Shown here one piece after another: positions 1,744 to 2,472 of a DNA stretch of 14,511 nt. The position numbers and the translations under genes are program-made. Each line of letters starts with the position of its first letter. Position 1 is the first letter of the stretch. Source of the DNA: a virus (taxonomy: Duplodnaviria; Heunggongvirae; Uroviricota; Caudoviricetes); the IMG/VR virus record IMGVR_UViG_2579778535_000016, positions 1-14,511 of that record. One strand, 5' to 3'. A model generated the notes under the pieces. It saw only the letters and a program-made list of their open reading frames with translations. It had not been told where the DNA came from and made no database searches.

Positions 1744-2472
1744 TTAGGCAGCTTTGGTGCTGTTCAGGATATGGCGCAGAGCATCTACACCATTAGCGTT
1801 GTAACGGAATGCCTCAATCTGCTTACTTGAGTGCGCTGATTTATCCAGGAAGAACTTACCGTACTGCTCAGTTTTGAGGTTGTTTGCGTTAGCAATGCGA
1901 CCAATCTTGTTGGCCGTTACTCCAAGCTGCTCTGCAACCTCCCCTGCTGAGTAGTAATGCTCTTCTATTGCTGGAAGAGGTATTGCATTAAAACCAACGA
2001 TCGGGTTGATTATGCTTGCTGCCGCAGTCTACTTTGCTTCCGGCGCAAGATTTGGCATCAAATCGAACAGATTGGTAACAGCTTCAACCGTCATTTTCAA
2101 TGTTCGCGCCTGGCGATACTCAACAAGTCCACTCGACGATTTACCGCTTTTAATGTGCGCTTCTTGCATACTTTCAAGTTGGTCTACAAGTGAGCGGCGA
2201 ACAGCTTTAGATTCACGAGCAGCCACTCGAAGGGCTTGCTTAATTGACATAACAACTTTTTCAGAAGTTGTCTTGTTTGATTTTTGAACTACGAAAATTT
2301 CGTAGTGCTCACCTTCAAGTTCATCCTTAATGCGTGCAATAAAGTCGTTATTTCGGACTTCTTTTTCCCCGCACTGTCTACGAGCATGATTGACCATCTC
2401 AAGCAGGCGCTGGCTGTCAATGGTTTTATCCGTGACAACGGATCCGATGTTTGCTACATTCTTAAAAGTCAT
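1744..2472 (-). pseudogene. Ant-type antirepressor interrupted by an in-frame TAG at 2029..2031
   Basis: ORF MTFKNVANIGSVV... (ATG at 2470..2472, AAGGAA RBS) stops at amber 2029..2031. The same frame then continues for 94 sense codons (TAAASIINPIVGF...HYYSAGEVAEQLGVTANKIGRIANANNL...ALRHILNSTKAA) to TAA at 1744..1746, with no ATG/GTG/TTG start inside. The C-terminal part resembles the ANT/KilAC antirepressor domain. Confidence 0.65.

What the first reader, a model, noticed from the sequence alone, without database searches (positions are those of the whole stretch)
2029..2031. In-frame amber codon inside the Ant-type antirepressor gene, with 94 further sense codons and no internal start
After TAG at 2029..2031 the same frame stays open to TAA at 1744 and encodes a sequence resembling an ANT/KilAC C-terminal domain. 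No ATG, GTG or TTG codon occurs in that stretch, so it cannot be a separate gene. This is either a recent nonsense mutation or a gene made full-length only in suppressor backgrounds.
Basis: seen in the sequence. Interest (0 to 1): 0.45.

Follow-up and report, generated by a model that had tools for sequence, protein, structure and literature searches.

The report
Nonsense-mutated antirepressor-like prophage gene
A single C-to-T change has turned an invariant glutamine codon into a stop codon in an antirepressor-like gene of a decaying E. coli prophage; this is an ordinary young pseudogene, not a recoding signal.

Summary
On the minus strand, a 243-codon frame (1744..2472) has TAG at codon 148 (2029..2031). 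It is followed by 94 sense codons with no in-frame ATG, GTG or TTG, and ends at TAA (1744..1746).

Every homologue I could read at DNA level (26 loci) has CAG (Gln) there and an intact 241-242 aa ORF. Gln148 is invariant in 34 diverse family members. None of 48 matching complete E. coli genomes carries the TAG allele. The change is therefore a single CAG>TAG transition.

The TAG allele is real. It occurs in at least 26 independent assemblies, all at the argW/intS prophage site, and always together with a frameshifted neighbouring ant gene. In the window copy the head and tail genes are also deleted. The copies are almost identical across this module, so the mutation is young.

No suppressor tRNA lies in the window or the fetched flanks. 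No other gene has an in-frame TAG, and the RNA downstream of the TAG folds no better than shuffled controls.

The gene belongs to PHROG 1726 ("anti-repressor"). It has no Pfam ANT/KilAC match. The P22-type Ant is the adjacent gene. The lost C-terminal part is the most conserved region and is predicted to be a winged helix-turn-helix.

Verdict: recent nonsense mutation in a degrading prophage. Low interest.

The parts
2029..2031 (-). Amber codon TAG at codon 148. Homologues have CAG (Gln), so this is a single C>T transition on the coding strand.
2032..2472 (-). Codons 1-147, the part still translated. The model gives an N-terminal alpha/beta domain (about residues 17-84) followed by long helices. 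The 147-aa product is the one that gene callers record.
1747..2028 (-). 94 sense codons after the TAG. In intact homologues they encode the most conserved part of the protein, a predicted winged helix-turn-helix. They have no start codon of their own.
1744..1746 (-). Original TAA stop of the 242-aa gene.
2561..3216 (-). Neighbouring P22-type ant gene (Bro-N + P22AR_C). It is split into 112-aa and 134-aa ORFs by a 1-nt deletion beside the A7 run at 2965..2971. Every TAG-bearing locus examined carries this lesion as well.

Best explanation
The gene at 1744..2472 (minus strand) is a member of a widespread Enterobacterales phage family of 241-248 aa, PHROG 1726, annotated 'anti-repressor'. It sits in the immunity-I-like module (mnt-like, arc-like, ant, this gene) of a prophage integrated at argW/intS in E. 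coli.

A single C>T transition changed the invariant Gln148 codon CAG to TAG. Release factor 1 is then expected to stop translation there. The product would be a 147-aa fragment that keeps the N-terminal domain and loses the conserved C-terminal winged-HTH domain. The remaining 94 codons are an untranslated relic.

The mutation is young. It is one of several lesions in a prophage that is being inactivated: the ant frameshift and, in the window copy, large deletions of head and tail genes.

Shown: the substitution, its uniqueness, the conservation of the lost part, the co-occurring lesions, and the near-identity of all TAG-bearing copies. Inferred: termination at the TAG, and loss of function.
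For: 1. The frame, the TAG position and the absence of an internal start are verified.

2. The codon is CAG in E. coli 55989 and EN-1077, in 22 IMG/VR contigs and in 2 metagenome contigs. All of these that are complete have intact 241-242 aa ORFs. Among 5,426 complete E. coli genomes, 48 hold the 61-mer around the site and none is 100% identical; the best matches are 60/61.

3. The family has 2,086 proteins at E<=1e-3. The best 120 are nearly all 241-248 aa with 90-100% coverage. Q148 is invariant in 34 members that are 64-95% identical, and the C-terminal third holds many invariant columns.

4. Between the window allele and intact alleles, codons 149-222 differ by 6.5-8.5 synonymous and 1-2.5 non-synonymous changes (pN/pS about 0.04-0.09). 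The segment therefore diverged under selection and has not decayed since.

5. Ten TAG-bearing loci differ by 0-1 substitutions across the roughly 2.8 kb immI module. All of them also carry the split ant.

6. The window copy has lost structural genes. Homology to the fuller copies L026 and L028 ends at window 7734. The portal gene is reduced to a 206-aa fragment. About 7 kb present in E. coli 30EVA1 is missing.

7. No tRNA lies in the window. Only argW (Arg-CCU) lies in the fetched flanks.

8. No other long ORF in the window is interrupted by TAG.

9. The RNA downstream of the TAG is not unusually structured (z = -0.88).
Against: Termination at this TAG and loss of function were not measured. 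The whole genomes of the carrier strains could not be scanned for a suppressor tRNA. No intact copy of exactly this allele (R22 plus the NANGVDALRHILNSTKAA tail) was found: the closest intact cluster representative is 95% identical, and the only apparent exact match is a translation artefact, so the ancestor is inferred. The allele occurs with three different intS alleles and slightly different chromosomal flanks. It has therefore persisted through some diversification or recombination, which is compatible with neutrality but also with a tolerated or useful truncation.
Confidence: 0.9

Rival explanations
1. The truncation is tolerated or favoured. Knocking out the two antirepressor-type genes (this gene by the amber codon, ant by the frameshift) would lock the prophage into lysogeny. 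Alternatively, the 147-aa N-terminal fragment keeps a partial activity. Selection in the lysogen would then have fixed these lesions. This extends the main explanation rather than replacing it.
For: Both adjacent antirepressor-class genes are disrupted in every TAG-bearing locus. The conversion-type genes next to them (acyltransferase, humD-like gene with an SOS box) remain intact. A separate frameshift allele of the same gene (P0123, 161 aa, on 11 contigs) exists in other E. coli. The allele is found with three intS alleles and slightly different flanks.
Against: Two lesions in one nearly clonal module is a single evolutionary event, so it gives no statistical support for selection. Most family members are intact. 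No stand-alone N-terminal homologues appear among the best 120 hits. No functional data exist.
Confidence: 0.15
2. Expression depends on suppression or readthrough. The full-length 242-aa protein would be made only when the UAG is decoded, by an amber suppressor such as a supE-type tRNA-Gln(CUA), which would restore the wild-type Gln, or by low-level near-cognate readthrough. That would give a dosage-limited antirepressor.
For: CAG>TAG is the change that a Gln-inserting suppressor would reverse exactly (established genetics of supE; my own knowledge). The downstream frame is still fully open. The base after the stop is A.
Against: The stop is not conserved: 26 of 26 homologous DNA loci and 34 of 34 aligned proteins have Gln. 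No suppressor tRNA lies in the window or in 10-kb flanks. The downstream RNA is not unusually structured. The intact downstream frame is explained by the youth of the mutation, since the copies differ by 0-1 SNP. To my knowledge, natural E. coli isolates are not known to carry amber suppressors routinely.
Confidence: 0.03
3. The stop codon is reassigned in the phage (TAG = Gln, genetic code 15), or the TAG is a sequencing or assembly artefact.
For: An ENA gene caller translated this same DNA with TAG as Gln and deposited a 242-aa protein, P0165.
Against: The P0165 contigs have TAG in the DNA, and the tool reports that they do not translate to the query under table 11, so this is a caller artefact on short contigs. 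All other genes in the window are intact under table 11 with no in-frame TAG. The host is E. coli: the 5.2-kb flank is 100% identical to K-12. The TAG is reproduced in at least 26 independent assemblies.
Confidence: 0.01

Closest known systems
Classical amber (CAG>TAG) nonsense mutations in phage genes, as in lambda and P22 amber mutants suppressed by supE
   Same: The molecular lesion is the same: a single transition turns a Gln codon into UAG and produces an N-terminal fragment. A Gln-inserting suppressor would restore the wild-type protein.
   Different: This one occurs naturally in wild and commensal E. coli assemblies and gut metagenomes, in a non-essential accessory gene. There is no evidence of a suppressor host.
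Gene decay in cryptic E. coli prophages, for example CPS-53/KpLE1, which occupies the same argW-intS site in K-12
   Same: The integration site is the same: argW, yfdC, mlaA, fadL flank. The pattern of point lesions plus large deletions that leave integrase and conversion-type genes is also the same.
   Different: It is a different prophage. Its intS is 95.8% identical to that of K-12, and the interior is unrelated. Decay is at an earlier stage: fuller copies (L026, L028) keep tail genes that the window copy has lost at one deletion junction; their head genes lie outside the fetched flanks and were not examined.
P22 immI region (mnt-arc-ant) and P22 Ant
   Same: The gene lies in an mnt-like/arc-like/ant module beside the tailspike gene, as in P22-like phages. 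PHROGs labels its family 'anti-repressor'.
   Different: The mutated gene is not P22 Ant. It has no Bro-N, P22AR_C, AntA or ANT (KilAC) Pfam match. P22-type Ant is the adjacent gene. Antirepressor activity of this family has not been tested, as far as I could find.
Homologous 'antirepressor protein', 'KilA protein' or 'Roi' genes of Stx2a-converting phages, Escherichia phage JEP4 and Klebsiella phages phiKp_30 and KP12
   Same: These are full-length colinear homologues, 62-95% identical, all without a stop at this position.
   Different: They are intact. Their names come from the annotators, not from experiments that I could verify.

Membership tests
Nonsense-mutated pseudogene | Orthologues carry a sense codon at the position of the stop, one nucleotide away | tested here: met
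   CAG in 26 of 26 homologous DNA loci. Gln is invariant in 34 proteins.
Nonsense-mutated pseudogene | The sequence after the stop is colinear with the rest of the intact orthologue and has no start of its own | tested here: met
   147 + 1 + 94 = 242 aa, the same as the homologues. No in-frame ATG, GTG or TTG.
Nonsense-mutated pseudogene | The stop is actually used, and no full-length protein is made | not testable with these tools
   Needs proteomics, ribosome profiling or a reporter. Only indirect evidence is available: no suppressor tRNA in the window or flanks.
Programmed stop-codon readthrough or stop-codon reassignment | The in-frame stop is conserved among homologues | tested here: not met
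   Only the near-clonal allele has TAG. All other homologues have CAG.
Programmed stop-codon readthrough or stop-codon reassignment | A suppressor tRNA is present, or other genes in the same element have in-frame TAGs | tested here: not met
   No tRNA in the window and only argW in the flanks. Other ORFs are intact under table 11. The whole host genome was not available.
Programmed stop-codon readthrough or stop-codon reassignment | A stimulatory RNA structure lies downstream of the stop | tested here: not met
   MFE -25.5 kcal/mol against a shuffle mean of -22.8; z = -0.88.
   No hit for the window protein at E<=0.01. No hit for any of 34 family members at E<=10; only weak HTH_17/HTH_31 matches. 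More distant carriers of the same C-terminal domain also lack it.
PHROG 1726 'anti-repressor' | A full-length match to the family profile | tested here: met
   E = 2.5e-98, residues 1-240 against profile positions 1-262 of 264, spanning the TAG position. The functional label is an annotation, not a tested activity.
P22-type Ant (Bro-N + P22AR_C) | Bro-N and P22AR_C domains | tested here: not met
   Absent from this gene. Present in the adjacent split gene: P22AR_C at 8e-14, weak Bro-N, and PHROG 245 'anti-repressor Ant' at 5e-51.

The most novel reading that the evidence does not exclude
The amber codon is not just decay. Low-level decoding of UAG as Gln, by near-cognate tRNA-Gln or an undetected suppressor, would yield trace amounts of full-length protein. 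Alternatively, the 147-aa N-terminal fragment acts on its own. Together with the slippery-looking A7 frameshift in ant, this would leave the prophage with a heavily attenuated but not abolished antirepressor circuit that is kept by selection.
Probability: 0.03. Interest if true: 0.4.

Novelty: already known. Interest (0 to 1): 0.08.

Why it matters
It matters little beyond annotation. The 147-aa ORF should be annotated as the 5' part of a pseudogene, and the 94 downstream codons should not be called a gene. The case also shows a database pitfall: metagenome gene callers that allow TAG=Gln deposited a "full-length" protein (P0165) that does not exist under the host's genetic code. Lastly, it gives a small, datable example of stepwise prophage inactivation at the argW site: point lesions in immunity-region genes came first, followed by large structural deletions.

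Tried and rejected
1. Exact look-up of the Gln148 "repaired" protein returned a database entry, P0165, which looked like the intact ancestor. Fetching its two contigs showed TAG in the DNA, so I rejected it as a TAG=Gln gene-calling artefact.

2. The pattern scan of one genome per species (genome contigs) gave only an unrelated chance hit in a Eubacteriales MAG. The metagenome scan gave 14 unrelated GAA hits and only 2 true homologues.

3. Pfam scans found no ANT/KilAC, AntA or Rha domain in this family. A profile search against PDB sequences found nothing. Foldseek against PDB with the AF2 model (mean pLDDT 70.6, pTM 0.36) gave no hit at E<=0.001. It gave only local similarity of the C-terminal roughly 70 residues to MerR/RacA/BldC/Xis-type winged HTH domains, so the fold assignment is tentative.

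4. The 72-aa "members" of the protein cluster (P0169 and others) are unrelated sequences, not truncations.

5. A literature search for the source assembly accession found nothing. A search on Stx-phage antirepressors returned only general papers, which I did not read further.

6. I considered whether the host might be a K-12 laboratory strain, with a possible supE, because the chromosomal flank is 100% identical to K-12. However, the intS allele is only 95.8% identical to K-12, the prophage interior is different, and the allele occurs in gut metagenomes and many sequencing runs. I rejected a laboratory origin as unsupported.

7. The terminator scan did not report a minus-strand terminator after the gene. 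The hairpin visible at about 1694..1716 lacks a sufficient T-run, so I make no claim about it.

Full report
**1. Observation**

Reading the minus strand and counting codons confirm the finding. The gene is 1744..2472, 243 codons. TAG is codon 148, at 2029..2031. Ninety-four sense codons follow, ending at TAA (1744..1746). None of the 94 is ATG, GTG or TTG.

The likely start is the ATG at 2472..2470 (MTFKNV...), which is where the homologues start. The mechanical ORF list extends further, to a GTG at 2523.

An open 94-codon stretch is unlikely by chance: 0.6% of shuffles have no in-frame stop. Homology settles the point in any case.

**2. What the codon is in relatives**

A megablast search of the region found matches in 378 E. 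coli records (374 genomes). In E. coli 55989 and EN-1077 the gene is annotated as an intact 729-nt "hypothetical protein". Its translation is colinear with the window's frame on both sides of the TAG. The codon there is CAG, and it is the only difference in an 81-nt alignment.

A 61-mer centred on the TAG matches 48 of 5,426 complete E. coli genomes. None is identical, and the best are 60/61.

A pattern that leaves the codon free (GAAGCAAAGNNNACTGCGGCAGC) found 22 viral contigs, all with CAG. The 14 that hold a complete 729-nt ORF read through without a stop. It also found 2 true metagenome homologues, both CAG and intact.

At protein level the family has 2,086 members at E<=1e-3. The best 120 are almost all 241-248 aa and cover 90-100% of the query. 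They come from Escherichia, Salmonella, Klebsiella, Serratia, Morganella, Proteus, Pantoea and others.

In an alignment of 34 members that are 64-95% identical, Gln148 is invariant. The C-terminal third holds a large share of the invariant columns.

It is not met.

**3. How old and how widespread the TAG allele is**

The exact 147-aa product is in the protein collection. It is encoded on at least 24 contigs from three NCBI assemblies, several Logan runs and ENA metagenomes. The window is 100% identical to GCA_000503395.1 contig AYQQ01000026.1 over the 12,472 nt that the window and the fetched locus share.

All copies sit next to intS, argW (tRNA-Arg CCU), yfdC, mlaA and fadL. The chromosomal flank is 100% identical to K-12 over 5.2 kb, so the host is E. 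coli. The prophage itself is not K-12's CPS-53.

Across the roughly 2.8 kb immunity module the TAG-bearing copies differ by 0-1 substitutions, plus a repeat-number indel. The SNPs are confined to intS, with 1, 22 or 43-44 differences in the copies that vary.

Compared with intact alleles, codons 149-222 differ by 6.5-8.5 synonymous and only 1-2.5 non-synonymous changes. The downstream part therefore evolved under purifying selection and has not decayed since the stop arose.

The last 20 codons come from a different mosaic allele (pS about 0.8). They still keep the family's FRYN..G...L motif.

An apparent intact copy of exactly this allele (P0165) turned out to be the same TAG-containing DNA translated with TAG=Gln by a metagenome gene caller.

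**4. Context: a prophage being dismantled**

The adjacent gene (2561..3216) is the P22-type Ant. It matches P22AR_C at 8e-14, Bro-N weakly, and PHROG 245 "anti-repressor Ant" at 5e-51. It is split into 112-aa and 134-aa ORFs. Intact homologues read ...GNYRKKVRVFSLRG... The window has CGA AAA AAA TGC GTG, which is one nucleotide short beside an A7 run at 2965..2971. Every TAG-bearing locus shows this split as well.

In the window copy, homology to the fuller copies (L026, L028) stops at 7734. The 200-aa ORF at 7340..7942 spans this junction; I infer that it is a deletion fusion. The portal gene is a 206-aa fragment. E. coli 30EVA1 has about 7 kb of head genes where the window has none.

The point lesions are shared by copies with and without at least the tail-region deletion. 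I therefore infer that the point lesions came first.

**5. Tests of the suppressor and recoding reading**

- ARAGORN finds no tRNA in the window, and only argW in five flanking loci.
- No other long ORF of the window contains an in-frame TAG. The only other TAG that ends an ORF lies at the end of the truncated 206-aa portal fragment, where a second frame (9491..9739) overlaps.
- The 111 nt from the TAG onward fold no better than shuffles (z = -0.88).
- Because the flanking sequence is the same in CAG-bearing homologues, no readthrough signal can have evolved for this stop.
- A Gln-inserting suppressor would restore the wild type exactly. That follows automatically from CAG>TAG and is not evidence of design.

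**6. What the protein is**

Pfam has no model for it. PHROGs places it full-length in phrog_1726, "anti-repressor" (E = 2.5e-98).

Phage records name the homologues "antirepressor protein", "KilA protein" or "hypothetical protein". One carrier of the C-terminal domain, in Escherichia phage PhiR12_3, is annotated "Roi".

An AlphaFold2 model (mean pLDDT 70.6, pTM 0.36) shows three parts:

- an N-terminal beta-alpha-alpha-beta-beta-alpha domain, about residues 17-84;
- three long helices; the TAG falls in the third, residues 144-159;
- a C-terminal helix-turn-helix followed by a beta-hairpin and a final helix.

Foldseek gives no hit at E<=0.001. Locally, the C-terminal module resembles the MerR/RacA/BldC/Xis type of winged HTH, with TM up to 0.74 on the target. 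This agrees with weak HTH_17/HTH_31 Pfam hits at residues 171-196.

The same C-terminal module occurs behind other N-terminal domains. In Pseudomonas phage PS-1 gp69 it follows a Rha domain, and it also occurs in Lactobacillus phage phiadh ORF159. None of these has a Pfam ANT match.

The architecture, a phage regulatory N-domain followed by a C-terminal HTH, resembles that class.

**7. Conclusion**

The best explanation (confidence about 0.9) is a recent CAG>TAG nonsense mutation. It truncates an antirepressor-like accessory protein before its most conserved, probably DNA-binding, domain. It lies in a prophage that is accumulating inactivating lesions.

Whether losing the two antirepressor-type genes was selected, for example to stabilise lysogeny, or was merely tolerated cannot be decided. 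All copies form one near-clonal event.

Suppressor-dependent expression, code reassignment and sequencing error are each very unlikely. The finding is real but ordinary.

Noticed in passing
window 2561..3216 (minus strand); A7 run at 2965..2971: The neighbouring P22-type ant gene is split into 112-aa and 134-aa ORFs by a 1-nt deletion beside an A7 run. In the upstream frame the context CG A_AAA_AAA T is formally a -1 slippery heptamer, and a -1 slip would give ...YRKKMRVFSLRG..., almost the intact protein. It is probably just a homopolymer indel, and slippage was not tested. It co-occurs with the amber codon in every carrier.
   Followed up: partly
window 3922..3972: A tandem hexamer array (CAGAGG, about 8.5 copies) lies between the mnt-like stop (3921) and the acyltransferase start (4022). 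Its length differs by 12 or 18 nt between otherwise identical loci (L026 and L034 against the window). It could be a copy-number-variable spacer upstream of the O-antigen-type acyltransferase gene.
   Followed up: partly
window 7340..7942 and 9491..10149: The window copy of the prophage has large deletions. Homology to the fuller copies L026 and L028 ends at 7734, inside a 200-aa fusion ORF. The portal gene is a 206-aa fragment ending in an out-of-frame TAG. About 7 kb of head genes present in E. coli 30EVA1 is missing.
   Followed up: partly
window 1639..1658 and 1232..1621 (minus strand): A near-consensus LexA/SOS box (TACTGTATTTATGTACAGTA, 2 mismatches, none expected by chance) lies just upstream of an intact UmuD/HumD-like S24 peptidase gene with no umuC partner in the window.
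   Followed up: partly
loci L036 and L037 (ENA contigs); protein P0165: The protein collection holds a 242-aa 'full-length' version with Gln at position 148. Its DNA has TAG. The gene caller evidently used a TAG=Gln code on short metagenome contigs, which produces a misleading database entry.
   Followed up: yes
window 1..1158 (intS) compared with L026, L030, L032, L033: Between TAG-bearing prophages, SNPs are confined to the integrase gene (22-44 in 1.18 kb), while the adjacent 2.8 kb has 0-1. This indicates recombination within intS, possibly with resident argW prophages. The window's intS is 95.8% identical to K-12 intS.
   Followed up: partly
window 4022..5035 (plus strand) and 5049..7283 (minus strand): An Acyl_transf_3 acyltransferase gene (GC 0.35, much lower than its neighbours) sits back-to-back with a 744-aa tailspike. 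The precomputed Pfam hits for the tailspike are Tail_spike_N plus weak GDSL/SGNH lipase-esterase families. This pairs an acyltransferase with a possibly esterase-type tailspike.
   Followed up: no
window 2508..2534: A 10-bp GC-rich inverted repeat with a T-run on the plus strand lies between the ant stop and the start of the amber-bearing gene. It is terminator-like for the strand opposite to these genes.
   Followed up: no
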